DNA of 64,000 nucleotides from Patescibacteria group bacterium (GTDB taxonomy: Bacteria > Patescibacteriota > Patescibacteriia > JACRDY01), in assembly GCA_041653535.1 (NCBI GenBank), contig JBAZFH010000002.1, positions 173,011 to 237,010 of the forward strand, in the 5' to 3' direction. Positions 4,035 through 18,474 of this stretch are shown here, piece by piece. Positions within the stretch are counted from its first letter, which is position 1; every line of letters starts with the position of its first letter. Under the pieces are notes generated by a model. The model saw only the letters and a program-made list of their open reading frames with translations. It had not been told where the DNA came from and searched no databases. Both the position numbers and the translations under genes were made by a program.

Positions 4035-6041
4035 ATGAATGTTACTGAGCTAGCACGAAAACTAAGAGTAACAACAAAAGAGCTACTGGAACTTTTGCCG
4101 CAGCTTGGTTTTGATATTGGCGCGCGAGCGATAAAAGTTGATCCGCGGGTAGCGTCGCAAATTTTACGGGAATGGCCGCGTTTTTATCGTGAACATCAGG
4201 CTAAGCTTGAGGCTATTCGCAAGCAAAAATTAATCGAAGAACGTAAGCTCAAAATGCAGGACAGCGGTCCGGTAAAACTGTCGGCAGTGATGACTGTCCG
4301 TGAATTCGCGGAAAAATTGGAAGTGCCGGTCAATCAGGTGATCGCCGAACTGATGAACAATGGAATCTTGGCAACGCTTAATGAGAGAATAGACTATGAC
4401 ACCGCTGCCATCGTGGCGGAAGGTTTTGGTTTTACGGTAGAAAAGTCGGAAGATGTCGCTTCCGACGTTGATATCGATAAGGATAAAAGAATAAGAGATA
4501 TCCTTGATAGTGCTGATAAAGAAAAATTGCAAGCACGTCCGCCGGTAGTAGTGGTGATGGGTCACGTCGATCACGGCAAAACTAAATTACTCGACGCTAT
4601 TCGTAAAACAAACGTTATTGATACGGAACACGGCGGTATTACTCAACACATCGGCGCGTATCAAACCATTTTTCAGGGACGGGCGATCACTTTTATCGAC
4701 ACTCCTGGTCACGAGGCTTTTACTACTATGCGTTCCCGCGGTGCCAAGGTCGCCGATATCGCCATACTTGTAGTAGCTGCCGATGATTCGATAAAACCGC
4801 AAACCGTGGAAGTAATTCAGATTTTACAGGCGCTCAATTTGCCTTTTATCGTGGCGATAAATAAAATCGATAAACCAGATGCCAATATTGAAAAGGTAAA
4901 ACAAGATTTGGCGCAGCGAAATTTATTGCCAGAAGATTGGGGCGGCAAAGTTGTTTGTGTGCCTATTTCCGCTAAACAAGGAACTAATATTAATCAACTT
5001 CTGGAGATGATCTTGTTGATTATGGATTTGAATAAAGAAAAAACTATGGCCGATCCTACCGGTCCGGCATGCGGTACTATTATCGAAGCTCATAAAGATG
5101 CCGGCGAAGGAGCCGTGGCAACATTGTTAGTGCAAACCGGTACTTTAAAAGTAAATGATATTTTGTCTATTAATGGCGCTTTTTACGGTCGGGTGCGGGC
5201 GATGAAAGATTGGATCGGCAAAGATGTTTTTGCCGCTCCGCCGGGAATGCCGGTCAAGATTTTAGGTTGGCGGGCGGAAGCCGCGGTCGGTGATATATTA
5301 GAAGTCGTATCCGATGTCAAAAAACTAAACGAACAAAAGATAAAGAAGCAAAAACCGTCGTCTGTTTCTAGCGCCGTAGTAACGCAAACCGAAAATTCCA
5401 GCGAAGAAGACGAGGAGAAGATAAAGACTCTGAATATAGTTTTGCGCAGCGATGTACTGGGTTCGACCGAAGCGATTGTCGAATCTTTGGCTAAACTAGA
5501 AATTCCGCATGGTGTAAAGTATAAAATAGTTTCTCAAGGGCTGGGTAATATAGTTGAATCCGACGTTTTGCGTGCCGAAGGCGACAACGGCGTGGTACTC
5601 GGTTTTAACGTTCAGGTTACGCCACTGGCTAATAAAATAGCGGATGAAAAAAAGGTAGAGGTAAAAACCTATAAAATCATTTATGAGTTGCTTGATTTGG
5701 TAAGAACAAAACTAAACGCTATGATTGAAGTAGAGATTAAAGAAAACGATATCGGCAAGGTGGAAGTTTTGGCGTTATTTAGAAAAGATAAGGTTGGTCA
5801 AGTGGTTGGCGGTCGTGTTAAGTCTGGCAAGATAGAAACCGGAGCCAAGGTTCGCGTGATGCGCGAGAATCTTGATTTAGCGCGACTGAAAATTTTGGAG
5901 TTACAAACCACCAAGCAGATAGTCAAAGACGTAGAGAAAGGTTTTGAATGTGGTATTAAATTAGAAGGAAAATTTGAGGTAGCTGTTGGTGATACGCTGG
6001 AAGTCTATCAGGAAGAAATGATAGAGAGAAAAGTAAAATAA
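4035..6041 (+). CDS. infB: Translation initiation factor IF-2
   Basis: 668 aa. IF2_N helix (MNVTELARKL...), GTPase motifs GHVDHGKTKLLD, DTPGHEAF and NKID, and a conserved C-terminal beta-barrel region. Confidence 0.95.
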   Translation: MNVTELARKLRVTTKELLELLPQLGFDIGARAIKVDPRVASQILREWPRFYREHQAKLEAIRKQKLIEERKLKMQDSGPVKLSAVMTVREFAEKLEVPVNQVIAELMNNGILATLNERIDYDTAAIVAEGFGFTVEKSEDVASDVDIDKDKRIRDILDSADKEKLQARPPVVVVMGHVDHGKTKLLDAIRKTNVIDTEHGGITQHIGAYQTIFQGRAITFIDTPGHEAFTTMRSRGAKVADIAILVVAADDSIKPQTVEVIQILQALNLPFIVAINKIDKPDANIEKVKQDLAQRNLLPEDWGGKVVCVPISAKQGTNINQLLEMILLIMDLNKEKTMADPTGPACGTIIEAHKDAGEGAVATLLVQTGTLKVNDILSINGAFYGRVRAMKDWIGKDVFAAPPGMPVKILGWRAEAAVGDILEVVSDVKKLNEQKIKKQKPSSVSSAVVTQTENSSEEDEEKIKTLNIVLRSDVLGSTEAIVESLAKLEIPHGVKYKIVSQGLGNIVESDVLRAEGDNGVVLGFNVQVTPLANKIADEKKVEVKTYKIIYELLDLVRTKLNAMIEVEIKENDIGKVEVLALFRKDKVGQVVGGRVKSGKIETGAKVRVMRENLDLARLKILELQTTKQIVKDVEKGFECGIKLEGKFEVAVGDTLEVYQEEMIERKVK

Positions 6042-6067
6042 TTAATGATTAACAATTAATAATTTAT

Positions 6068-6414: not shown

Positions 6415-6447
6415 TAAAACTCCGTTTATTGGGCGGAGTTTTTTAAT
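6415..6447. terminator. Intrinsic terminator shared by convergent trxA and the TrmB-like gene
   Basis: AAAACTCCG (6416-6424) pairs with CGGAGTTTT (6434-6442), followed by a T-run. It overlaps the last codons of the minus-strand gene. Confidence 0.5.
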
Positions 6448-7211
6448 ATTATCCCGCTAGACACGGACCACAATCCTTCAAATATCGCGAGCATGGTATC
6501 GTGAAATTCTTTTGATTGGATTAGTACTGCCGACAGTTCTTTGAGTGAAGAAATAATCAGCACTTTGTCATCGTAAATATCGATGACTGAAGAAAATTTT
6601 CCGTACATTACCGGCGGCAGGACGCGAGGGTTGCGTTCCAGGAGCTGTTGCGGGGTCATTAGTTTTTGACTTTCTTGGTATTCCCAGAGCGATCGGCTGG
6701 TAATACCTTTGGCTTGGCGGGTTTCCACGAAATATTTGGCGTAATTTTTATCAAATTCAGAAAAAAAGTTTTTAATGGGAGAAATAATATCCCAGTGTTT
6801 TGATTTGCAGTAGAGTGCGTCTTCGATTACTGTTTTTACGCCCTCGATCCCTTCATAGTGATAGACGCTGATTTTATTTTCCGGCTGTTCCATGCTTTGT
6901 AGCAGGAGCGGGATAATAGCGGAGATTTCACCTTTTTGTTTTTCTAGCATTCTAATTTTTTCTTGGAGCAGGTTTTGGATGTTTTTCGGGTCGGTGGCGG
7001 TGAAAAGTATTTTTTGTCCGGAAATTTTTTTCCCGACCAGTCCCTTGTCTGTCAAAGTGCCTAGGGCGTGATAAATTGTCGTCCGGTTAACGTTGGTTTG
7101 TTTGACCAGTTCATTTACCCCGATCGTCGAGTATTTCAAAGCAGCGAGGTATATCTTTACTTCAGTTTGCGTCAGACCTAGATTTTTTAGAGAGTCGGTG
7201 ATTTGGGACAT
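6426..7211 (-). CDS. TrmB-family transcriptional regulator
   Basis: The ORF track gives 6426..7310. I trimmed it to the ATG at 7211 (MSQITDSLKNLGLTQTEVKIYLAALKY...NRTTIYHALGTLTDKGLV, a TrmB winged helix). The 33 upstream codons are translated low-complexity leader repeat. Confidence 0.7.
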   Translation of the reverse strand: MSQITDSLKNLGLTQTEVKIYLAALKYSTIGVNELVKQTNVNRTTIYHALGTLTDKGLVGKKISGQKILFTATDPKNIQNLLQEKIRMLEKQKGEISAIIPLLLQSMEQPENKISVYHYEGIEGVKTVIEDALYCKSKHWDIISPIKNFFSEFDKNYAKYFVETRQAKGITSRSLWEYQESQKLMTPQQLLERNPRVLPPVMYGKFSSVIDIYDDKVLIISSLKELSAVLIQSKEFHDTMLAIFEGLWSVSSGIILKNSAQ

Positions 7212-7248
7212 ATTGGTAGTTGGTAGATGGTAGTTGGGGATTAGGGTC
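7212..7248. repeat. G/T-rich short-period repeat (ATTGGTAGTTGGTAGATGGTAGTTGGGGATTAGGGTC)
   Basis: Direct reading. On the minus strand it is a G-free C/A/T leader that abuts the TrmB-like ATG. It matches 25 of 37 positions with 11069-11105 in the same orientation. Confidence 0.6.
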
Positions 7249-7464
7249 AAGAGAAATAAGAAATTGGAAATGACTATTATAATAATATTAGTTATTGATG
7301 GTTTTGTCAAAGATTGTTTGTAATGAAATATATTTAAAATTAGATAAAAAATTTATTTGTTTATCAATAGTTATAAACACATATTAACACTTTTGGTATT
7401 TAGCTGTTAAATATAGGTGGAAAAAGAACATTAAAAATTGAAACAAACAAAAAGGAGGATAACG

Positions 7465-8349
7465 ATGATTATCGATGTCCATACCCATACTACTACGCAC
7501 GATCTGTGGGATTTACATACCAAAACCGCCACACTGACCGATCTGGAAGGATTGGCCGCGCAGTACGACGTCAGGAAAATCATCCTGATGGCAACGTATT
7601 TTCCGACCAAAGGCACGGGACTGCACAATTTGGATCTGCTGCGCCGAATCGGAGAAAGCAAACTTTTTGCCATGTGCGCCAGTCTAAACGCTATGACTGC
7701 TGACGGTCTACACATCGGTCTGCAGGAGATCAGCCTCTTGGCGCGAGAAAAAATGATCGTCGGGATTAAGCTCTATCCCGGTTATCAAAATTTTCACCTT
7801 TCCGATCGACGAATCGATCCACTGTATGAGCTCGCGGAAAAGTATCGTTTGCCGGTGACGGTTCATACCGGTGAGTTGCATCACTGCTGCCCGGTCAAAG
7901 ATCGGGGAGAGGGTCGCGGTCGCTGCGGTCAAGTCTGCCCGATTGACGAGTGGCAAAATTTGGCGCGACCGTCGCAGATTATCGAAGCAGCGACACGCTT
8001 TCCCGAAGTCAATTTTGTGCTGGCACATCTGGCCAATCCCTACTTCAGTGAGTTGCTGTATGACGTGATGGCAGTATTGCCAAACGTCTACACGGATATT
8101 TCCGGACAGTTTCGTTCGGGAACAGAAGAAGCGACTGAGGAATACAAAGATGAAGTGTTGGCGCAAATCAAAATGTTTATTTCGTCAGGGCAAGCCGGCA
8201 TCGATCGAGTGATGTTTGGTACAGACTTTCCTATTCAGTCTTACGCCGACACGGTTGATTTCGTGGAACGGCTGGGACTAGGTAAAGAAGACAAGGAAAA
8301 AATCTACTGGCGTAACGCCGCAAGGCTGTTTGCGTTGGATATAGGGTAA
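7465..8349 (+). CDS. Amidohydrolase-superfamily (TIM-barrel metal-dependent hydrolase) protein
   Basis: Start set at the ATG 7 nt after AAGGAGG. MIIDVHTHTTTHD (HxH metal motif), VTVHTGE, and LAHLANPY...FGTDFP. Contains a Cys-rich insert HHCCPVKDRGEGRGRCGQVCP. Confidence 0.7.
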   Translation: MIIDVHTHTTTHDLWDLHTKTATLTDLEGLAAQYDVRKIILMATYFPTKGTGLHNLDLLRRIGESKLFAMCASLNAMTADGLHIGLQEISLLAREKMIVGIKLYPGYQNFHLSDRRIDPLYELAEKYRLPVTVHTGELHHCCPVKDRGEGRGRCGQVCPIDEWQNLARPSQIIEAATRFPEVNFVLAHLANPYFSELLYDVMAVLPNVYTDISGQFRSGTEEATEEYKDEVLAQIKMFISSGQAGIDRVMFGTDFPIQSYADTVDFVERLGLGKEDKEKIYWRNAARLFALDIG

Positions 8350-8360
8350 GGAGACGGAAT

Positions 8361-9056
8361 ATGGAAAGAAAAAGAATTTTGGTTACCGCCGGGTCCACAG
8401 TAGTGCCTATTGATCAGGTGCGAGTTATTTCCAATATCTTTAAGGGCAAAACCGGAACGGCTATTGCTGCACATTTTGCAGAGCGAGGACACGGCGTGAC
8501 TTTGCTCACCTCAAATCCAGAGCTGCTTGAAGATTACCGCGAGATCAGCAATGGCTGGAATATTCAGGTGGTGAAATTCCGGACGTTCAACGACCTGGCT
8601 AGCGCAATGAAAAAGCTGATCACTGCCGGCGCATATGACATGATCGTTCATTCGGCCGCAGTCAGCGACTATCAGGTCGCTCAAGTACTGACGAAAGATG
8701 TAGGAGGTCAGTTGTTGCCACTAGACGCTGGTACAAAAGTTTCTTCTCGGCACGGCAAGCTGTATCTGGAAATGGTGCCGACAGCAAAATTGATCGACAA
8801 GATTCGGACCGATTGGGGTTTTGCCGGCTATCTGGTCAAGTTCAAACTGCAGGTGGGAATCGGCGACGGAGAGCTAGTCAATATCGCCCGTCAGAGCCGA
8901 GCTGATTCGGCATCAGACCTAATCATCGCCAACTGTCTGGAGTGGGCCGCTCAATATGCCTATGCTATTGGGTCTGATAATACGGCAGAGAAAATTTCGC
9001 GGGAAAAAATCGGCGAGACGATTGAAAGGAGGGCGGGTTGGTATGACGAAAAATAA
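8361..9056 (+). CDS. CoaB-like phosphopantothenate-cysteine ligase domain protein (stand-alone)
   Basis: 231 aa. ILVTAGSTVVPIDQVRVISNIFKGKTG and HSAAVSDYQV match the CoaB (DFP C-terminal domain) motifs. SD AAGGAG lies 7 nt upstream. Confidence 0.65.
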   Translation: MERKRILVTAGSTVVPIDQVRVISNIFKGKTGTAIAAHFAERGHGVTLLTSNPELLEDYREISNGWNIQVVKFRTFNDLASAMKKLITAGAYDMIVHSAAVSDYQVAQVLTKDVGGQLLPLDAGTKVSSRHGKLYLEMVPTAKLIDKIRTDWGFAGYLVKFKLQVGIGDGELVNIARQSRADSASDLIIANCLEWAAQYAYAIGSDNTAEKISREKIGETIERRAGWYDEK

Positions 9057-9702
9057 AGTTTTACTCGGGCTGACTGGGAGTGTAGCTTCCAAGCTCGACA
9101 GGCAAATTGTGGCAGCGCTAAAAGCAGAAGGTTGCGAGGTGATCGTTGTTCCAACTATTGCTTCGCTGTATTTCAGCTGGTCTCTCAAGCTCGAGTTTGT
9201 TAAAGCGTTGCTAGCAAGCAAGCTTGGCTTACTTGGTAGGATGTTAGCGCGGGTAATCGAGCTATTGTTTCCAAGCAAACTCGGAGCGCCGGTAGTTACC
9301 GATGCCGCCGAATGGCGCGGACTCAACTACAAAAAAAATATGCCGATCGAGCATATTGTCTTGCGCGACTGGGCTGATGTGCTGGTAATCGCGCCGCTGT
9401 CGGCTAACACGCTTGGCAAAATCGCAAACGGTCTAGCAGACAATCTACTGACTTGTATTGTCCGCGCTTGGGATCCGGCCAAACCAGTTGTGCTGGCACC
9501 GGCTATGAATACCAAGATGTGGCAGTCGTCGTTTACCGCAACGCACTTGCAAAGTTTGAAAAATATTTTTCAGCTGTGTGTAGTGCCACCGGTAAGTAAA
9601 AAGTTGGCTTGCGGCGATGAAGGAGTTGGTGCACTGGCTGCTATTACTGACATCGTCGCTGCTGTCGGCGTTGCCACAAAATCGTCTCTCGACGTTGTCT
9701 AG
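9043..9702 (+). CDS. HFCD-family flavoprotein (CoaC-like phosphopantothenoylcysteine decarboxylase)
   Basis: Start trimmed to ATG 9043 (SD AAGGAGG 9 nt upstream; 14-nt overlap with the CoaB-like gene). LGLTGSVAS, HIVLRDWADVLVIAPLSANTLGKIANGLADNLL, PAMNTKMW and LACGDEGVGAL. A roughly 40-aa insert follows the first strand. Confidence 0.7.
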   Translation: MTKNKVLLGLTGSVASKLDRQIVAALKAEGCEVIVVPTIASLYFSWSLKLEFVKALLASKLGLLGRMLARVIELLFPSKLGAPVVTDAAEWRGLNYKKNMPIEHIVLRDWADVLVIAPLSANTLGKIANGLADNLLTCIVRAWDPAKPVVLAPAMNTKMWQSSFTATHLQSLKNIFQLCVVPPVSKKLACGDEGVGALAAITDIVAAVGVATKSSLDVV

Positions 9703-9733
9703 TTGCAAATAACCTGAAAAAAAGGAGCGGTCA

Positions 9734-9991
9734 ATGGAAGCGTACAAAACAGTTTGTCCAGATTGCGGCTATGTCCGGTTTTGGACCGGTTGGAAAACCG
9801 GTTTGGGCAAGACCAAAGAACAGCTGGAACAGATGAGCCGTGATTTCAAGACATGCAAGAAATGCGGTTCGGTTAACGCCAAAACCGGTTCTGACCGTGA
9901 GTCTGAAATAGGCCGCGATTTTGCTGCCATGGACAAAGAGGCAGTGCGAGTCATTGGCGATTTTATCAAAGAACGGTTGGGGGTAAAATAG
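9734..9991 (+). CDS. Small zinc-ribbon protein (85 aa), unknown function
   Basis: CPDCG...CKKCG pair. SD AAAGGAG lies 6 nt upstream. Confidence 0.5.
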   Translation: MEAYKTVCPDCGYVRFWTGWKTGLGKTKEQLEQMSRDFKTCKKCGSVNAKTGSDRESEIGRDFAAMDKEAVRVIGDFIKERLGVK

Positions 9992-9992
9992 A

Positions 9993-10250
9993 ATGAAAGT
10001 CCGTGTTTATGGAGAAGATAAGGCAGGACTTGTCGCTGATACAACGGTGATTCAAATAACGTGTCCGCATTGCAACAGCGATCTGGACGTGACTTTTAGC
10101 GACATCAGTCGTTGTGCCGGTTTTCGTCACGATGTAGATGCTTGCGGAGTAAGGACTTGCTGCGGTGCCTGCAATCAGTATTTTCTCATTTCGCAAGACA
10201 AGATGCCAAAAAATTGGCTAAAGGCGTTATTTCCGCCTGATGAGTTTTGA
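9993..10250 (+). CDS. Small Cys-rich protein (85 aa), unknown function
   Basis: CPHC...C...C..CCGAC. The start is 1 nt after the previous stop, suggesting translational coupling. Confidence 0.5.
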   Translation: MKVRVYGEDKAGLVADTTVIQITCPHCNSDLDVTFSDISRCAGFRHDVDACGVRTCCGACNQYFLISQDKMPKNWLKALFPPDEF

Positions 10251-10260
10251 AAAAAAACAA

Positions 10261-10286
10261 AACCCCGTACCAAGTATGGGGTTTTT
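10261..10286 (+). terminator. Intrinsic terminator
   Basis: AACCCCGTA-CCAAG-TATGGGGTT (one GU pair) followed by TTT. Confidence 0.7.
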
Positions 10287-10352
10287 AAAATATTGACTTT
10301 TTTCTGTTATTATTCTAAGTTATATAGTTAAATAAAAAAGGAGGGCGTTAAC

Positions 10353-10724
10353 ATGTACAGAGACATTGAACCGGATGGACGCGTCCGCAGCGTTCTTTTC
10401 GCGGGATGGCTGGTTGTTGTGGGGTTGATGATCACCGTATTCTTTTTTCACATTTTAGGAAAGGTTGCTTGGGGGTTGTTTATTGCTCTTTATTCTTTGC
10501 CCTGGTGCATTTGGGGGTTTGTCACTATCGGCGCTTATGTTTTGCAGTTTAAAATGAACATGACGATGGGTAGTGGCAGTAAGGAAAAAAAAGAAGATTG
10601 GCGACGCGGCGGCAACAGACGGTACAGATATTCTGGTATTCCGGGGGGAAATTCCAGTGGTCTTTGGAATCAAGGTCGGGTTTGGGATCCGGAAAAAAAC
10701 CAATGGGAAGAAAAAAAGGAGTAA
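10353..10724 (+). CDS. Small membrane protein with a Gly/Arg/Trp-rich tail (123 aa)
   Basis: Two to three hydrophobic helices, then a charged tail KEKKEDWRRGGNRRYRY.... SD AAGGAGGG lies about 8 nt upstream. Confidence 0.5.
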   Translation: MYRDIEPDGRVRSVLFAGWLVVVGLMITVFFFHILGKVAWGLFIALYSLPWCIWGFVTIGAYVLQFKMNMTMGSGSKEKKEDWRRGGNRRYRYSGIPGGNSSGLWNQGRVWDPEKNQWEEKKE

Positions 10725-10758
10725 TGAGACGACTTAAATAACGCGAGGAGGGGAGAAA

Positions 10759-10983
10759 ATGAACCGCGTTAAGCAAGAGCCAAAACCCGGCAGAAAGTGC
10801 GTTCTTTGCGGTATGCCGCTGAGTATGTACAATCCAAACAATCAGTGTTTTTGTCATCAAACAGGGTTGAAAAACGACCCCTTGTTTCTACGAGTAGAAA
10901 AAACTGGTTGTTTTTCAACTGGAATTCGGGGCTTCGATTTTCGTCGGACCATGTCCGACTACGAAGGAAGATCGGTTGATTAA
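10759..10983 (+). CDS. Small putative zinc-binding protein (74 aa)
   Basis: KCVLCG...CFCH motif. SD GAGGAGGGGAG is upstream. Confidence 0.45.
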   Translation: MNRVKQEPKPGRKCVLCGMPLSMYNPNNQCFCHQTGLKNDPLFLRVEKTGCFSTGIRGFDFRRTMSDYEGRSVD

Positions 10984-10989
10984 AAATCT

Positions 10990-11026
10990 ATCCGCCCGAT
11001 ACACTAGTCGGGCGGATTTTTATTTT
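10990..11026 (+). terminator. Strong intrinsic terminator closing the SD-bearing block
   Basis: Perfect 10-bp stem ATCCGCCCGA (10990-10999) / TCGGGCGGAT (11008-11017), followed by TTTTTATTTT. Confidence 0.8.
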
Positions 11027-11164: not shown

Positions 11165-11199
11165 TAACCATTAACCATTAATCATTAATCATTAATTAC
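11165..11199 (+). repeat. Five tandem heptamers TAACCAT/TAATCAT/TAATTAC forming a G-free trxB leader
   Basis: TAACCAT x2, TAATCAT x2, TAATTAC x1. The array ends 7 nt before the trxB ATG, and there is no G in 11165-11206. Confidence 0.85.
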
Positions 11200-13651: not shown

Positions 13652-13879
13652 ATGAAAAGTTTTCTTTTGCGGAAGTGGCACGAGTTCATGGCTAAGAGTG
13701 ACGAGACTATTTGGTTGACGGTAATCCTTTCTGTCCTTTGCGCCGTTTGCGCGATTCTTGTCACCTTCGGGCTTGGCAACAATCCGGTGGTTTTTTTTCT
13801 CTTGGCCGTATTCTACGGCGCCCTTGCAGCAGTCCTTTTCTTTGTCACACCAAAGGTGCCATCACCACCGCCATTTTGA
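13652..13879 (+). CDS. Small two-helix membrane protein (75 aa)
   Basis: Two hydrophobic helices and a PSPPPF tail. SD GAAGGAG lies 7 nt upstream. Has its own terminator. Confidence 0.5.
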   Translation: MKSFLLRKWHEFMAKSDETIWLTVILSVLCAVCAILVTFGLGNNPVVFFLLAVFYGALAAVLFFVTPKVPSPPPF

Positions 13880-13892
13880 CCAATCACCCAAC

Positions 13893-13925
13893 GCCCTCGC
13901 GTTTCATATGACGCGGGGGTTTTTA
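13893..13925 (+). terminator. Intrinsic terminator
   Basis: CCCTCGCGT (13894-13902) pairs with ACGCGGGGG (13911-13919, one GU pair), followed by TTTTT. Confidence 0.7.
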
Positions 13926-15009: not shown

Positions 15010-18000
15010 ATGAATGAATATAATCACCAAGAAATAGAAAAGAAATGGCAGAAGGTTTGGACAGGGCAAAATATTTATCGCACTCGAGAAGACAAGGGTA
15101 GACCCAAGTTTTACATTTTGGATATGTTTCCCTATCCCTCTGGTGTGGGACTACATGTTGGTCATCCCAAAGGATATATTGCTACTGATATTTTTGGTCG
15201 GGCTAAATCAATGCAGGGCTACAATGTGCTCCATCCCATGGGATGGGACGCTTTTGGCTTGCCGGCAGAAAACTACGCTATCCAAAACAAAGTTCATCCG
15301 CGCCAGGCGACAGAAGAAAATATCAAAACTTTCAAAAATCAGCTAGCCATACTCGGTTTCACTTACGATTGGGAAAGAGAAATCAATACTACTGACCCGG
15401 CGTATTACAAATGGACGCAGTGGGCTTTTATTCAGATGTTCAAAAAAGGTCTTGCTTACGAATCATACGAGCCGATCAACTGGTGTCCATCTTGCAAAAC
15501 CGGTCTAGCCAACGAAGATCTGGAAAACGGTCTTTGCGAACGTTGCGGTTCAGAAGTAGAACGTAAACCCATTCGACAGTGGGTGCTAAAGATTACCGAT
15601 TACGCCGACCGACTACTAAACGATTTGGAAAAATTGCCGGACTGGGAAGAGTCGATCAAAGAAATGCAGAGGAATTGGATTGGGAGGTCGGAGGGGGTAG
15701 AGATAGAATTTAAAATTAAAAATAATGGTGAGCAGCAGTATAACCCACCAATTAATTGGTGGGTTAACAGTGGTGACGGAGACGTTTGGTTTTTTGTTAC
15801 TTTCCCGACTTACAGCCGAGGTTTATTTTTTGAAGAGCAAGGTGAGGCTCAGAAAATAATCAATATTTTTGAGCAGATTGTTAAGGAAAAAAAATATCAA
15901 GTGGCAGATATCGCGGTTATGCCAGAGCACGTACACCTGCTTGTTAAACGCGGAAAAAAAGACGATTTGGAAAAGATTGTTAAAAACCTCAAAGGTATTA
16001 GTTCTCGTTTGTATGATCAAAGCGAGGAGCATTTATGGGCTAAAAGTTTTGAATACGAAACGATAGAGAACCAAGTAGATTTTGATAAGGTGATTAGTTA
16101 TTTACAAAATAATCCGATCAAGGCGGGTTTGCCAAAAGATGGTAGACTTTTATCCGAGTATCGGATGACTACGATTGGTGGGTCAGTCGACAGGATTAAG
16201 GTGTTTACTACTCGACCGGACACGCTCTATGGCGCAACTTATTTAGTATTGTCGCCGGAGTACGCGTGGTTAAACTCAGTGTCGCCGGAGTACGCGTGGT
16301 TAAACCACCAATTAATTGGTGGTTTAACCAATGCAGATGAAGTGGTGGCTTATATCGAGAAGACCAAGCAAAAAACCGATCTAGCTCGCCAGGCGGAAAA
16401 AGAAAAAACCGGCGTTGAGTTAAAAGGCATCAAAGCTATCAATCCGGTTAATGGCGACGAGCTGCCGATTTTTATTGCCGACTATGTTTTGTCCAGTTAC
16501 GGCACGGGAGCTATCATGGCAGTGCCAGCTCACGATGAAAGAGATTTTGAATTTGCCAAGAAATTTAACTTGCCGATCATTCCGGTTATTAAAGATGAGG
16601 ATAAAGATAAACGTGGAACAATTTTGGTTATTCATGGACTATGCGGAAATTCTAATGAAAATTGGTTTCCGTGGTTAAAAGATAATGCCCAAAAAATTGG
16701 TTATGAGGTTTTAGTCCCAGATCTACCAAATGCAGATGAACCAAAAATGGAAGAATGGTTGTCGGTTTTAGCTGGTCTAAAAGAAAAATTAGTTGGTGAG
16801 ATAATTGTAATTGGTCATAGTTTGGGCGCTGCAGTGGCTTGTAAATTTGTTGAAGAAAATAATTTGAAAATAAATAAGTTAATTTTAGTTGCGCCGACTG
16901 GGTCAAGTCAAGGTGAAGATAATTGGCAAGCGTTAAAAAGTGCTGGTGTAACAGATAGTGGCATTCAAGCAATTAAAGATTTTAACGGAGTGAAAATTGA
17001 TTGGAAAAATTTGCAAAGTTTAATCGAAAGTCCGTTTATTTGTATGTCAGACAATGATCCATATATTCCGTTGGAAGTTCAGAATGATTATAAAGGAATA
17101 AATCCGGCAATTAGAATATTTTCTAACTGCGGTCATTTTAATCAAAAAGCGGGTTTTATCAAGTTTCCTGAATTAATGGCGGAGATCATGGATGGGGCTT
17201 ATGTCGGCAAAGGTGGTTTGGTTAATTCAGGAGAATTTGATGGTATGGAAGTTGATGAAGCCAAGAAAAAAATTACTAAAAAAGTTGGCGGCAAACTGAC
17301 CGTCCAATACAAACTTCGCGATTGGGTGTTTTCTCGCCAGCGTTATTGGGGCGAGCCGATTCCGCTCGTCAAATGCGACAAATGCGGCTGGGTAGCAGTA
17401 CCGGAAAAAGATTTGCCGGTCGAGCTTCCTGATGTAAGATTTTACGAGCCAACCGGTACGGGTGAATCACCGCTAGCTAATATTACCGACTGGGTAAATA
17501 CCACTTGCCCGGAGTGCGGCGGACCAGCTAAACGTGAAACCAACACCATGCCACAGTGGGCTGGATCATCTTGGTATTATTTACGTTATATCGATCCGCA
17601 CAATGATACGGCGCTAGTCGACAAGAAAAAAGAAAAATATTGGTCGCCGGTTGATTTTTACGTTGGTGGAGCTGAGCACGCGACACGACATTTGATTTAC
17701 GCTAGATTTTGGCACAAATTTTTGTATGATATTGGCGCGGTAAATTATGATGAGCCGTTTAAGAGATTGCAACACGTTGGATTGATACTAGCTGAAGACG
17801 GTCGCAAGATGAGTAAGCGTTGGGGCAACGTGATAAACCCAAACGATATCGTCCGCGATTATGGCGCTGACGCCATGCGTGTTTACGAAATGTTTATGGG
17901 ACCTTTTTCGCAACCCTGCGCTTGGAGTACAGATGGGTTGGTTGGAGCTAGAAGATTTTTGGTTAAGATATGGAAATTGCAAGATAAAGTAAAGGAGACG

Positions 18001-18474
18001 GAAATTGAGAAATTAGAAATTAAGAAATTGGTTCATAAGACGATTAAAAAGGTTACCGAAGATATTGAAAACTTTAGGTTCAACACCGCTATCTCGGCGA
18101 TGATGATTTTGGTTAACGAAATGGAAAAGGAAGAAAGTATTTCAGCCGCCAATTTTCAATTTCTCATTTCTATATTATCTCCTTTTGCTCCGCATATCTG
18201 CGAAGAGTTGTGGCAAAAGCTTGGTCACATTGACAGTATTACTGTGCGGCCTTGGCCGAAATATGACGAGAAGCTGATTGTTGACGACGTTGTTAGCTTA
18301 GTCGTTCAGGTCAACGGCAAACTAAGAGAAAATATTGAAGTAGCAAAAGACATCACGGAAAAAGAAGCAACCGAGCTGGTGCTAGCAAGCGAAAAAATAC
18401 AGAAATGGCTAGAAGGGAAAACACCAAAGAAAATAATTTTTGTTCCGGGTAAATTAATTAATATAGTTGTTTAA
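15010..18474 (+). CDS. leuS: Leucine-tRNA ligase with two large in-frame insertions (1154 aa)
   Basis: HIGH motif (HVGHPKGY), CP1 editing motif TTRPDTLYGATY, AHDERDFEFA, RDWVFSRQRYWGEPIP, KMSKS motif (RKMSKRWGN), and a C-terminal anticodon-binding region, all in one frame. About 300 codons longer than the 860-aa E. coli LeuRS. Confidence 0.95.
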   Translation: MNEYNHQEIEKKWQKVWTGQNIYRTREDKGRPKFYILDMFPYPSGVGLHVGHPKGYIATDIFGRAKSMQGYNVLHPMGWDAFGLPAENYAIQNKVHPRQATEENIKTFKNQLAILGFTYDWEREINTTDPAYYKWTQWAFIQMFKKGLAYESYEPINWCPSCKTGLANEDLENGLCERCGSEVERKPIRQWVLKITDYADRLLNDLEKLPDWEESIKEMQRNWIGRSEGVEIEFKIKNNGEQQYNPPINWWVNSGDGDVWFFVTFPTYSRGLFFEEQGEAQKIINIFEQIVKEKKYQVADIAVMPEHVHLLVKRGKKDDLEKIVKNLKGISSRLYDQSEEHLWAKSFEYETIENQVDFDKVISYLQNNPIKAGLPKDGRLLSEYRMTTIGGSVDRIKVFTTRPDTLYGATYLVLSPEYAWLNSVSPEYAWLNHQLIGGLTNADEVVAYIEKTKQKTDLARQAEKEKTGVELKGIKAINPVNGDELPIFIADYVLSSYGTGAIMAVPAHDERDFEFAKKFNLPIIPVIKDEDKDKRGTILVIHGLCGNSNENWFPWLKDNAQKIGYEVLVPDLPNADEPKMEEWLSVLAGLKEKLVGEIIVIGHSLGAAVACKFVEENNLKINKLILVAPTGSSQGEDNWQALKSAGVTDSGIQAIKDFNGVKIDWKNLQSLIESPFICMSDNDPYIPLEVQNDYKGINPAIRIFSNCGHFNQKAGFIKFPELMAEIMDGAYVGKGGLVNSGEFDGMEVDEAKKKITKKVGGKLTVQYKLRDWVFSRQRYWGEPIPLVKCDKCGWVAVPEKDLPVELPDVRFYEPTGTGESPLANITDWVNTTCPECGGPAKRETNTMPQWAGSSWYYLRYIDPHNDTALVDKKKEKYWSPVDFYVGGAEHATRHLIYARFWHKFLYDIGAVNYDEPFKRLQHVGLILAEDGRKMSKRWGNVINPNDIVRDYGADAMRVYEMFMGPFSQPCAWSTDGLVGARRFLVKIWKLQDKVKETEIEKLEIKKLVHKTIKKVTEDIENFRFNTAISAMMILVNEMEKEESISAANFQFLISILSPFAPHICEELWQKLGHIDSITVRPWPKYDEKLIVDDVVSLVVQVNGKLRENIEVAKDITEKEATELVLASEKIQKWLEGKTPKKIIFVPGKLINIVV
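15741..15766. repeat. 26-nt perfect palindrome TAACCCACCAATTAATTGGTGGGTTA
   Basis: Checked base by base. The 18-nt core CCACCAATTAATTGGTGG is at 15745-15762. It is translated as NPPINWWV. Confidence 0.95.
16250..16305 (+). repeat. Tandem duplication (26-nt unit, 30-nt period) TGTCGCCGGAGTACGCGTGGTTAAAC
   Basis: 16250-16275 and 16280-16305 are identical. Together they encode SPEYAWLN-SV-SPEYAWLN. Confidence 0.95.
16298..16329. repeat. 32-nt perfect palindrome GGTTAAACCACCAATTAATTGGTGGTTTAACC
   Basis: Checked base by base. It carries the same 18-nt core at 16305-16322. It is translated in a different frame from the first copy, as LNHQLIGGLT. Confidence 0.95.
16591..17190 (+). other. Alpha/beta serine-hydrolase domain (YdeN/RBBP9-like) inserted in-frame in leuS
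   Basis: TILVIHGLCGNSNENWFPWLK...YEVLVPDLPNADEP...VIGHSLGA (Ser codon 16819-16821)...LILVAPTG...SDNDPYIP...NCGHF (His codon 17134-17136). It lies between LeuRS motifs AHDERDFEFAKKFNLPI and GGLVNSGEFDG. Confidence 0.75.

What the first reader, a model, noticed from the sequence alone, without database searches (positions are those of the whole stretch)
7249..11026. Shine-Dalgarno-using, GC-richer gene block between trxA and trxB in an otherwise SD-less window
Seen directly:
- Seven of the eight genes concerned carry a canonical AGGAGG-type SD 6-9 nt before the ATG. They start at 7465, 8361, 9043, 9734, 10353 and 10759 in this block, plus the orphan gene at 13652. The eighth (9993) is coupled to its neighbour.
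- I inspected the 20 nt upstream of about 50 other starts in the window (ymdB, hup, infB, trxA, trxB, gdh, rnhB, leuS and every gene of the 22-60 kb cluster). None has such a site. Their leaders are A/T/C-rich and G-poor.
- The block is also GC-richer by hand counts (roughly 48-60% per 60-nt line against about 35-45% for the neighbours).
- It ends at a perfect 10-bp-stem terminator.
- It separates trxA from trxB, which are adjacent in many bacteria.

Inference: the block is horizontally acquired from an SD-using donor (a phage, plasmid or other bacterium). No integrase or structural phage gene is present.
Basis: partly seen in the sequence, partly recalled or inferred. Interest (0 to 1): 0.6.

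Follow-up and report, generated by a model that had tools for sequence, protein, structure and literature searches.

The report
Shine-Dalgarno-led CoA operon in SD-poor Patescibacterium
The flagged block is a self-regulated accessory operon (TrmB regulator, amidohydrolase, CoaB, CoaC, small zinc-ribbon proteins) inserted between trxA and trxB of a candidate-phyla-radiation bacterium, and its ribosome-binding sites are a conserved property of this operon family across the phylum rather than a fingerprint of a foreign donor.

Summary
All 7 block genes and the orphan at 13652 have a strong Shine-Dalgarno (SD) site. None of the other 54 genes in the window does. The block is also the most compositionally deviant stretch of the window.

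- **Insertion:** three relatives keep infB-trxA-trxB-gdh-rnhB without the block, so it is an insertion.
- **Unit:** the inserted unit is 6426-11026 and includes a divergent TrmB regulator with a conserved operator.
- **Origin:** the module TrmB | amidohydrolase-CoaB-CoaC(-Zn-ribbon) recurs in many Patescibacteria in different genomic contexts. Its best homologues are Patescibacterial, not from phages, plasmids or another phylum.
- **SD pattern:** in 20 other loci the three enzyme genes keep SDs (41/60), while the adjacent TrmB gene never has one (0/8). Cassette GC3 tracks host GC3 (r=0.92).

The SDs are therefore gene-specific and under selection, not donor relics. These genomes run two kinds of translation start: G-poor A/U-rich leaders with U at -1, and canonical SD.

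The likely function is conversion of 4'-phosphopantothenate to 4'-phosphopantetheine. The role of the amidohydrolase is unknown.

The parts
6416..6442 (.). Hairpin shared by the convergent trxA and TrmB genes (bidirectional terminator-like). It marks the left edge of the inserted unit.
   Evidence: 12 pairs, T-run; sequence read
6426..7211 (-). TrmB-family HTH regulator (261 aa from the ATG at 7211). It is SD-less, with a G-poor leader ending ...ctaccaactaccaatATG.
   Evidence: Pfam TrmB E=2e-13. Homologues at 54-64% identity lie divergently next to the amidohydrolase in L066, L069, L074, L075, L084, L087 and L096. Its SD dG is +2.7, and it is never below -4.5 in 8 other loci.
7282..7310 (-). 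Sigma-70-like promoter for TrmB (TTGACA-17-TATTAT, 11 of 12 matches)
   Evidence: The TTGTCAA element is conserved in the intergenic regions of other loci.
7370..7389 (+). Operator-like motif GTTATAAACACATATTAACA (GTTA-N11-TAAC) in the divergent intergenic region. Presumed TrmB binding site.
   Evidence: TAAACA-N2-TATT lies about 75-170 nt (mostly 75-115 nt) upstream of the amidohydrolase start in the window and in L066, L067, L074, L075, L087/88 and L096. Binding is inferred.
7453..7458 (+). AGGAGG Shine-Dalgarno site of the amidohydrolase gene, 6 nt before the ATG
7465..8349 (+). Amidohydro_2-family metal hydrolase (294 aa). It has the HxH, His and Asp ligands plus an invariant 4-Cys insert (C141, C142, C154, C158). 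Substrate unknown.
   Evidence: Pfam PF04909 E=1e-31. 21-sequence family alignment. Only remote matches to solved structures.
8361..9056 (+). Monofunctional CoaB-like phosphopantothenate-cysteine ligase (231 aa), SD AGGAG at 8349-8353
   Evidence: Pfam DFP E=1e-27. NCBIfam CoaB models match but score below their cut-offs. Best solved relatives are 2gk4 and human PPCS.
9043..9702 (+). Monofunctional CoaC-like phosphopantothenoylcysteine decarboxylase of the HAL3/eukaryote-like type (219 aa). It has an insert of about 30 aa. SD AGGAGG lies at 9027-9032, inside coaB.
   Evidence: Pfam Flavoprotein E=3e-28. AtHAL3a E=1e-41 and human PPCDC E=5e-40. The motifs PAMNTKMW and LACGD are present in the translation.
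9734..9991 (+). Small CxxC...CxxC zinc-ribbon ORF (85 aa), SD-led. No homologue found in the fetched loci.
9993..10250 (+). Cys-rich zinc-ribbon protein (85 aa), a recurrent fourth member of the cassette
   Evidence: Homologues in L152 (44%, after coaC) and in L074, L084 and L087/88 (between the amidohydrolase and coaB)
10256..10287 (+). Terminator-like hairpin (AAAACCCC...GGGGTTTT plus T-run) that ends operon 1
   Evidence: Read directly. The equivalent hairpin sits at the same place in L152. The consensus scan did not list it because the loop is 11 nt.
10284..10313 (+). Promoter-like site for the second small operon
   Evidence: TTTAAA-18-TATTAT with TG. The region is 69% identical at the DNA level to L152.
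10353..10724 (+). Small membrane protein (123 aa), SD AGGAGG at 10339-10344. A conserved gene.
   Evidence: 55% identical homologue with the same SD in L152
10759..10983 (+). Cys-rich 74-aa ORF, SD AGGAGG at 10746-10751. Conservation not shown.
10990..11017 (+). Intrinsic terminator that closes the block (right edge)
13652..13879 (+). SD-led orphan gene for a 75-aa hydrophobic protein (hydrophobic stretches read from the translation, no topology prediction run). It is inserted between gdh and rnhB and has its own terminator at 13893-13920.
   Evidence: SD -8.3. gdh and rnhB are adjacent in L153. No true homologue among 1.84 billion representative proteins.

Best explanation
What it is. The segment 6426-11026 is an accessory, self-regulated gene module typical of Patescibacteria. 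A TrmB-family regulator is transcribed divergently from an operon and shares an intergenic region with it. That region holds a conserved operator-like motif. The operon encodes an Amidohydro_2 hydrolase, a monofunctional CoaB, a monofunctional HAL3-like CoaC and one or two zinc-ribbon proteins. A second small unit follows (a membrane protein plus a Cys-rich peptide).

Function (inferred from family membership and motifs). CoaB ligates cysteine to 4'-phosphopantothenate, and CoaC decarboxylates the product to 4'-phosphopantetheine, for CoA or carrier-protein cofactor supply. The amidohydrolase probably prepares or releases a substrate. This is speculative.

History. In this lineage the module was inserted into the trxA-trxB junction of a conserved, SD-less backbone (infB-trxA-trxB-gdh-rnhB). 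The most likely route is recombination or transfer from another, GC-richer Patescibacterium.

The SD sites. They are not donor relics. They are kept by selection on these particular genes in every host, so the host ribosome must use them. These genomes contain two classes of translation start:
- a majority with G-poor, A/U-rich, weakly structured leaders and U at -1;
- a minority, mostly accessory or metabolic genes, with canonical SD at 6-10 nt.
The GC-richer, more structured mRNAs of the cassette may need the SD for ribosome recruitment. This is an inference.
For: Insertion:
- L155 has infB-trxA-trxB-gdh.
- L153/L154 have trxA-trxB-gdh-rnhB.
- L063 has infB-trxA-folD-trxB-(SD-led aminotransferase)-gdh.

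Module conservation:
- The Amidohydro_2-DFP-Flavoprotein triad occurs in different genomic contexts in L066, L067, L069 and L070 and in about 16 further metagenome loci.
- TrmB is divergent next to it in 8 loci.
- The operator-like motif is present in 8 loci.
- zr2 homologues lie inside cassettes.
- L152 shares coaC-zr2-hairpin-mem at 69-73% DNA identity.

SD under selection:
- 41/60 cassette enzyme genes in 20 other loci have dG<=-8, and 49/60 have dG<=-6.
- TrmB scores 0/8, and internal ATGs 2.8%.
- Cassette GC3 follows flank GC3 across 0.19-0.92 (r=0.92), which indicates long residence in the host lineages.

Two classes of start:
- In seven loci with database gene calls there are 75 SD-less genes (72% U at -1, G fraction 0.08) and 36 SD-led genes (25% U at -1). 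Fisher p=4e-6. Only 10 genes are intermediate.
- In the window, 78% of SD-less genes have U at -1.
- Close relatives of the host are almost SD-free (L153 1/19, L155 1/12).

mRNA structure:
- Start regions of SD-less genes fold more weakly (-4.6 vs -6.9 kcal/mol, p=0.03).
- Block genes are more structured internally (-13.7 vs -10.0).

Enzyme identity.
Against: - No 16S rRNA is available, so the host's anti-SD is unverified. A published survey found the CCTCCT motif in only 48% of Parcubacteria (PMC9297842).
- The relatives used for synteny are distant (TrxB 54-65%), so the timing and direction of the gain are unresolved.
- No phylogenetic reconciliation was done.
- No mobility signature was found.
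- SD estimates for flanking genes from my own ORF caller are noisy.
- CoaB and CoaC score below the NCBIfam equivalog cut-offs.
- The amidohydrolase substrate is unknown.
- The link between mRNA structure and SD rests on 8 genes.
Confidence: 0.62

Rival explanations
1. The block was acquired recently from a foreign SD-using donor (phage, plasmid or another phylum), and the SDs are unameliorated donor signals.
For: - The block is GC-richer, with the most deviant codon usage and tetranucleotide content in the window.
- It is absent from the syntenic slot in relatives.
- CoaB/CoaC pairs exist on huge-phage contigs.
Against: - The best homologues are Patescibacterial.
- The phage homologues are more distant and SD-poor.
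- Nothing matches in the phage or plasmid DNA collections or in PHROGs.
- TrmB in the same module is SD-less everywhere.
- SDs are retained in cassettes whose GC3 has converged on the host's.
- There is no integrase, att site or tRNA.
Confidence: 0.12
2. Vertical inheritance. The module is ancestral in this Patescibacterial group and has only been relocated or differentially lost. Its composition and SDs reflect gene-specific selection, not transfer.
For: - Cassette GC3 tracks host GC3 (r=0.92).
- Divergence of the cassette proteins (50-57%) is similar to that of backbone proteins.
- No mobility genes are present.
- The cassette is on average GC3-richer than its flanks in 25 of 33 loci (32 other loci plus the window itself), which suggests an intrinsic offset.
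Against: - The module sits in a different context in every genome examined.
- The window's GC3 offset (+0.14) is well above the mean offset (+0.057).
- The block is the strongest compositional outlier in the 64 kb.
- Three relatives have an intact trxA-trxB junction.
Confidence: 0.2
3. A cassette circulating among hosts. The SDs are maintained only because the cassette moves frequently among Patescibacteria, some of which use SD widely. In SD-poor hosts such as this one they are unused passengers.
For: - Some cassette hosts have many SD-led genes (L066 9/14, L070 11/23).
- The genomic context of the cassette varies.
Against: - The GC3 convergence implies long residence, over which a neutral 5-6 nt motif at a fixed spacing would decay.
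- SD spacing stays at 6-10 nt.
- TrmB lacks an SD even in SD-rich hosts.
Confidence: 0.06

Closest known systems
Monofunctional PPCS/PPCDC of eukaryotes and of streptococci/enterococci (AtHAL3a 1e20, human PPCDC 1qzu, human PPCS 1p9o, S. pneumoniae 2gk4)
   Same: - The domain families are the same (DFP, Flavoprotein).
- The genes are separate rather than a fused CoaBC.
- CoaC keeps PxMNxxMW and the LACGD substrate-clamp cysteine.
- By my count, CoaC is about 58% identical to AtHAL3a over its C-terminal 126 residues.
- Fungal PPCDCs (44-49%) are as close as other Patescibacterial ones.
   Different: - A conserved Amidohydro_2 gene with a 4-Cys insert, a zinc-ribbon gene and a TrmB regulator are attached.
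- CoaC has an insert of about 30 aa that it shares only with L152.
- Scores are below the NCBIfam equivalog cut-offs.
- No activity has been tested.
Genomic islands acquired by horizontal transfer
   Same: - The composition is atypical.
- The block is inserted between neighbours that are adjacent in relatives.
- It carries accessory metabolic cargo.
   Different: - There is no integrase, tRNA target, direct repeats or conjugation or phage genes.
- The gene pool appears to be the same phylum.
- The translation signals are conserved features, not donor relics.
SD-independent initiation in Bacteroidota with a few SD-bearing genes (from my own knowledge of published work on Flavobacterium ribosomes and rpsU; not checked here)
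   Same: - Most genes lack an SD and have A-rich, unstructured leaders.
- A small set of genes keeps strong SDs, which implies a ribosome that can still pair with them.
   Different: - The phylum is different.
- The hallmark here is U at -1 with a G fraction of about 0.08.
- The SD-led set consists of accessory metabolic operons rather than a ribosomal-protein autoregulatory gene.
- The mechanism is untested.
TrmB-family transcription regulators
   Same: - The N-terminal winged-helix TrmB domain scores above the Pfam cut-off.
- The gene is arranged divergently from the operon it presumably controls, with a partly palindromic operator.
   Different: - The classic archaeal TrmB proteins are sugar sensors (about 340 aa).
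- This protein is 261 aa and matches those equivalog models only weakly.
- The effector is unknown.

Membership tests
Horizontally acquired genomic island | Composition differs from the host genome | tested here: met
   Top outlier for codon usage and tetranucleotides in the 64 kb. GC3 0.495 vs 0.395.
Horizontally acquired genomic island | Absent from the syntenic site in related genomes | tested here: met
   L155 and L153/L154 have adjacent trxA-trxB. L063 has only folD there. These relatives are distant (TrxB 54-65%).
Horizontally acquired genomic island | Mobility signature (integrase/recombinase, tRNA target, flanking direct repeats) | tested here: not met
   No tRNA, no convincing flanking repeats, and no integrase or phage family hits
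Horizontally acquired genomic island | Gene phylogeny incongruent with the species phylogeny, or a foreign taxonomic profile | tested here: inconclusive
   The named nearest homologues are all Patescibacteria, so no foreign-phylum signal appears. No tree reconciliation was possible.
Canonical Shine-Dalgarno translation start | Purine-rich motif complementary to CCUCC, 5-10 nt upstream of the start | tested here: met
   8 of 8 genes, dG -8.3 to -12.3, spacing 6-10 nt
Canonical Shine-Dalgarno translation start | The host 16S rRNA carries the complementary anti-SD tail | not testable with these tools
   No rRNA in the window or in any fetched locus
Phosphopantothenoylcysteine decarboxylase (CoaC/PPCDC, HFCD flavoprotein) | Flavoprotein domain with the PxMNxxMW motif and the substrate-clamp ACGD cysteine | tested here: met
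   PF02441 at 99 bits against a cut-off of 22.7. PAMNTKMW and LACGD are in the translation. AtHAL3a E=1e-41.
Phosphopantothenoylcysteine decarboxylase (CoaC/PPCDC, HFCD flavoprotein) | Score above the NCBIfam equivalog cut-off | tested here: not met
   TIGR02113 at 107 against 261, and TIGR00521 at 117 against 220
Phosphopantothenate-cysteine ligase (CoaB/PPCS) | DFP C-terminal domain, with the family's conserved motifs kept | tested here: met
   PF04127 at 97.5 bits against a cut-off of 22. Invariant positions such as G11, T13, D18, R21, N25 and H97-S98-A100-S102-D103-Y104 in the 32-sequence alignment.
Phosphopantothenate-cysteine ligase (CoaB/PPCS) | Score above the NCBIfam equivalog cut-off | tested here: not met
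   NF005231 at 104 against 265, and TIGR02114 at 98.5 against 217
Prophage or phage-derived island | Phage structural, replication or integration genes, or similarity to phage genomes | tested here: not met
   PHROGs gives only two weak zr2 hits and two weak TrmB hits. No phage DNA match. Phage protein matches are <=35% in GenBank phages and 41-47% in IMG/VR huge-phage contigs.
TrmB-family regulator with a divergent operon | TrmB HTH domain, and a conserved operator in the shared intergenic region | tested here: met
   PF01978 at 50 bits against a cut-off of 25.6. The motif is conserved in 8 loci at a similar distance. Binding was not tested.

The most novel reading that the evidence does not exclude
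This branch of Patescibacteria runs two parallel translation-initiation regimes. One is a default SD-independent mode (G-poor A/U leader, U at -1). The other is a conserved SD-dependent class that covers accessory metabolic operons. The split is maintained gene by gene, even inside one divergon (SD-less TrmB against SD-led enzymes). The SD class could then be a translational regulon whose output depends on anti-SD availability. SD status could also be used to read out the flexible genome in CPR MAGs.
Probability: 0.25. Interest if true: 0.7.

Novelty: new variant of a known kind. Interest (0 to 1): 0.5.

Why it matters
1. It cautions against using SD presence as a marker of foreign DNA in SD-poor lineages. 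Here SD status is conserved by gene family.
2. It gives a concrete, sequence-defined system for asking how CPR ribosomes start translation without an SD, and why some genes still need one. The system is one divergon with both start types, replicated across dozens of genomes.
3. It defines a widespread, uncharacterised Patescibacterial module: an amidohydrolase with a 4-Cys insert, eukaryote-like PPCS and PPCDC, a zinc-ribbon protein, and a TrmB regulator with its operator. This bears on how these reduced, host-dependent bacteria obtain 4'-phosphopantetheine and CoA.

Tried and rejected
- **Synteny from species representatives.** A TrxB scan of the genome collection gave only <=43% relatives, which is too far for synteny. 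Closer relatives came from the protein search plus contig look-ups instead.
- **Huge-phage lead.** CoaB/CoaC pairs lie on 435-kb and 124-kb IMG/VR contigs. I rejected these as donors because they are less similar than the Patescibacterial homologues and are SD-poor.
- **Phage and plasmid collections.** There is no DNA match. Protein matches are <=35%. PHROGs returned nothing useful.
- **Integration signature.** There are no flanking repeats or tRNA genes.
- **My own ORF caller for flanking-gene SD use.** Start errors make it noisy. L066 gave 2/13 against about 6/9 non-cassette genes with database gene calls. I use only for pooled trends and GC3, and rely on alignment-guided starts and database gene calls.
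- **An alternative rRNA-pairing motif in SD-less leaders.** Only A/T homopolymer-like k-mers are enriched.
- **16S 3' end.** It is absent from the window and from all fetched loci.
- **Structure prediction of the amidohydrolase from the family alignment.** A profile search of solved structures gave only remote Amidohydro_2 members.
- **Orphan 13652.** The only non-self hit is a spurious match to a repeat protein.

Full report
**Source and setting.** The window comes from a 323-kb contig that NCBI labels 'Patescibacteria group bacterium'. Its TrxB is closest to proteins from unnamed Patescibacteria (65%), Falkowbacteria (57%) and Kuenen-, Buchanan- and Uhrbacteria-type MAGs (about 50%). The window holds no tRNA or Rfam RNA.

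**Check of the observation.** I used a curated list of 62 genes and scored the -22..-3 region of each start against CACCUCCUUA.
- The seven block genes (7465, 8361, 9043, 9734, 9993, 10353, 10759) and the orphan at 13652 give -8.3 to -12.3 kcal/mol.
- None of the remaining 54 genes reaches -8. Their median is -0.4.
- Only 2.8% of 322 internal in-frame ATGs reach -8.
- Block versus rest gives Mann-Whitney p=1e-5. Clustering of 7 of 8 SD genes in one run never occurred in 200,000 permutations.
- The SD cores are AGGAGG or AGGAG (UGGGGG for 9993), 6-10 nt before the ATG.
- A motif-first scan of both strands found no further ATG-started SD gene.
- GC is 0.494 for 7465-10250 against 0.401 elsewhere. 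GC3 is 0.495 against 0.395. The block is the strongest outlier in the window for both codon usage and tetranucleotides.
- The closing terminator at 10990-11017 is real.

The observation therefore stands. Two corrections apply. The unit includes the minus-strand TrmB gene at 6426-7211. There are also two transcription units, separated by a hairpin at about 10256-10287.

**What the block encodes**.
- A TrmB-family regulator on the minus strand.
- An Amidohydro_2 hydrolase.
- A monofunctional CoaB (DFP domain).
- A monofunctional CoaC (Flavoprotein domain) with PAMNTKMW and LACGD.
- Two small zinc-ribbon proteins.
- After a hairpin and a promoter-like site, a 123-aa membrane protein and a 74-aa Cys-rich ORF.

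CoaC is strikingly like the eukaryotic enzymes. AtHAL3a scores E=1e-41 and human PPCDC E=5e-40, while mycobacterial CoaBC scores only E=2e-12. Fungal PPCDCs at 44-49% identity are as close as most Patescibacterial homologues. The best solved relatives of CoaB are pneumococcal 2gk4 and human PPCS. The amidohydrolase family keeps the HxH, His and Asp metal ligands and adds an invariant four-cysteine insert. Solved structures are only remote relatives.

**Is it an insertion?** Yes, relative to a conserved backbone.
- A Falkowbacteria contig (L155) has infB-trxA-trxB-gdh with a 120-bp gap between trxA and trxB.
- L153/L154 have trxA-trxB-gdh-rnhB.
- The closest relative (L063) has infB-trxA-folD-trxB-aminotransferase-gdh, and its extra aminotransferase is SD-led.

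Both the block and the orphan at 13652 (between gdh and rnhB) therefore sit in variable slots of an SD-less backbone. The orphan has no true homologue among 1.84 billion representative proteins. No integrase, tRNA or flanking repeat marks the insertion.

**Where does it come from?** It does not come from a phage, a plasmid or another phylum, as far as the data show.
- CoaB homologues at 50-57% and CoaC homologues up to 72% are Patescibacterial wherever a source names them.
- Two IMG/VR huge-phage contigs carry CoaB/CoaC pairs. They are more distant (41-47%), and their genes lack strong SDs.
- GenBank phages and PLSDB plasmids give no DNA match and only remote protein matches.
- PHROGs gives nothing.

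The core of the block is a recurrent module. Amidohydro_2-DFP-Flavoprotein occurs with different neighbours in L066, L067, L069 and L070 and in about 16 more metagenome loci. A divergent TrmB (54-64% identical) accompanies it in eight loci. The motif TAAACA-N2-TATT (GTTATAAACACATATTAACA at 7370-7389 in the window) lies roughly 75-170 nt (mostly 75-115 nt) upstream of the amidohydrolase start in eight loci. Homologues of the second zinc-ribbon protein occur inside other cassettes. A 1.8-kb contig (L152, GC 0.52) shares coaC, zr2, the hairpin and the membrane protein at 69-73% DNA identity, with the same SDs. zr2 and the membrane protein are therefore real genes.

**What the SDs mean.** I placed cassette starts in the other loci by alignment.
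- 41 of 60 cassette enzyme genes in 20 other loci have SD dG<=-8, and 49 of 60 have dG<=-6.
- The adjacent TrmB gene never does (0 of 8).
- Several coaC SDs lie inside the variable 3' end of coaB, yet they keep their spacing.
- Cassette GC3 follows the GC3 of its flanks from 0.19 to 0.92 (r=0.92, mean offset +0.057). The cassettes have therefore been resident long enough to ameliorate, and the SDs persist all the same.

A donor relic would also have given TrmB an SD, and it would have decayed. The SDs are therefore selected, which implies that the hosts read them.

In seven related loci with database gene calls, starts fall into two classes.
- 75 are SD-less, with 72% U at -1 and a leader G fraction of 0.08.
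- 36 are SD-led, with 25% U at -1.
- Fisher p=4e-6, and only 10 genes are intermediate.

In the window, 78% of SD-less genes have U at -1. No alternative pairing motif is enriched in their leaders. The closest relatives of the host are almost SD-free (1/19 and 1/12). Other cassette hosts use SDs for a third to a half of their genes. SD-led genes are mostly accessory enzymes: an aminotransferase, an amidotransferase, an aldolase, a radical SAM enzyme, NADAR and kinases.

Start regions of SD-less genes are less structured than those of the block genes, and the block's coding sequences are more structured. This fits the idea that GC-richer mRNAs need an SD, but it does not prove it.

A published survey reports that the anti-SD motif was detected in only 48% of Parcubacteria (PMC9297842). 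I could not examine this MAG's 16S rRNA.

**Verdict.** The inference of an insertion with atypical composition is supported. The inferred donor and the reading of SDs as foreign signals are not.

The best explanation is an accessory, TrmB-controlled operon for making 4'-phosphopantetheine. It belongs to a Patescibacterial gene pool and was placed in the trxA-trxB slot of this lineage, probably from a GC-richer relative. Its SDs are a conserved, functional feature in genomes that otherwise start translation without an SD.

The window's GC3 offset (+0.14 against a mean of +0.057) favours a fairly recent arrival. Vertical descent with relocation cannot be excluded without gene trees.

Steps shown here:
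- the insertion relative to the backbone;
- conservation of the module;
- conservation of the SD / no-SD split;
- the two classes of translation start.

Steps inferred:
- the enzymatic function;
- TrmB binding to the motif;
- use of the SDs by the host ribosome;
- the link between mRNA structure and SD use.

Noticed in passing
window 15010-18474: The leucyl-tRNA synthetase gene (1154 aa) carries two extra in-frame domains: an IS200-like Y1 transposase domain (aa 263-368, E=2e-15) and a serine-hydrolase / alpha-beta-hydrolase domain (aa 538-723, E=9e-19).
   Followed up: no
window 6039-6067 and 11170-11198: The leaders of trxA and trxB share repeats of the palindromic element TTAAT(G/C)ATTAA (83% complementary arms). 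This may be a common operator for the thioredoxin system, retained on both sides of the inserted block.
   Followed up: no
window, all SD-less starts; also L063, L066, L067, L069, L070, L153, L155: SD-less genes have U at position -1 in 72-78% of cases, against 25% for SD-led genes. Their leaders are A/U-rich with about 8-11% G.
   Followed up: partly
window 9043-9702: The CoaC protein is far closer to plant, human and fungal PPCDC (E about 1e-40; 44-49% identity to fungal proteins) than to typical bacterial CoaBC (E about 1e-12). This hints at a specific relationship between the Patescibacterial and eukaryotic enzymes.
   Followed up: partly
window 7465-8349 (aa 139-158): The cassette amidohydrolase family has an invariant HHCC...C...C insert (C141, C142, C154, C158). 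This insert does not fall in any stretch that aligned to a solved Amidohydro_2 structure. It may be a second metal or Fe-S site.
   Followed up: no
L061 10001-11789 (IMG/VR 435-kb contig) and L062 8179-10325 (124-kb contig): Huge-phage contigs encode a CoaB/CoaC pair. In L062 it sits next to a TANGO2-family gene, and L061 also carries a ClpP that is 42% identical to the window's ClpP.
   Followed up: partly
L063 11082-12293: In the closest relative, an SD-led aminotransferase sits between trxB and gdh, and folD sits between trxA and trxB. The junctions of this backbone are recurrent slots for extra genes.
   Followed up: partly
window 13652-13879: The SD-led 75-aa hydrophobic ORF has no real homologue among 1.84 billion representative proteins. 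The single hit is a chance match to a repeat protein.
   Followed up: yes
window 6426-7310: The database gene call for TrmB starts at the TTG at 7310 (294 aa). Homologues and the promoter-like site at 7282-7310 indicate the ATG at 7211 (261 aa).
   Followed up: yes
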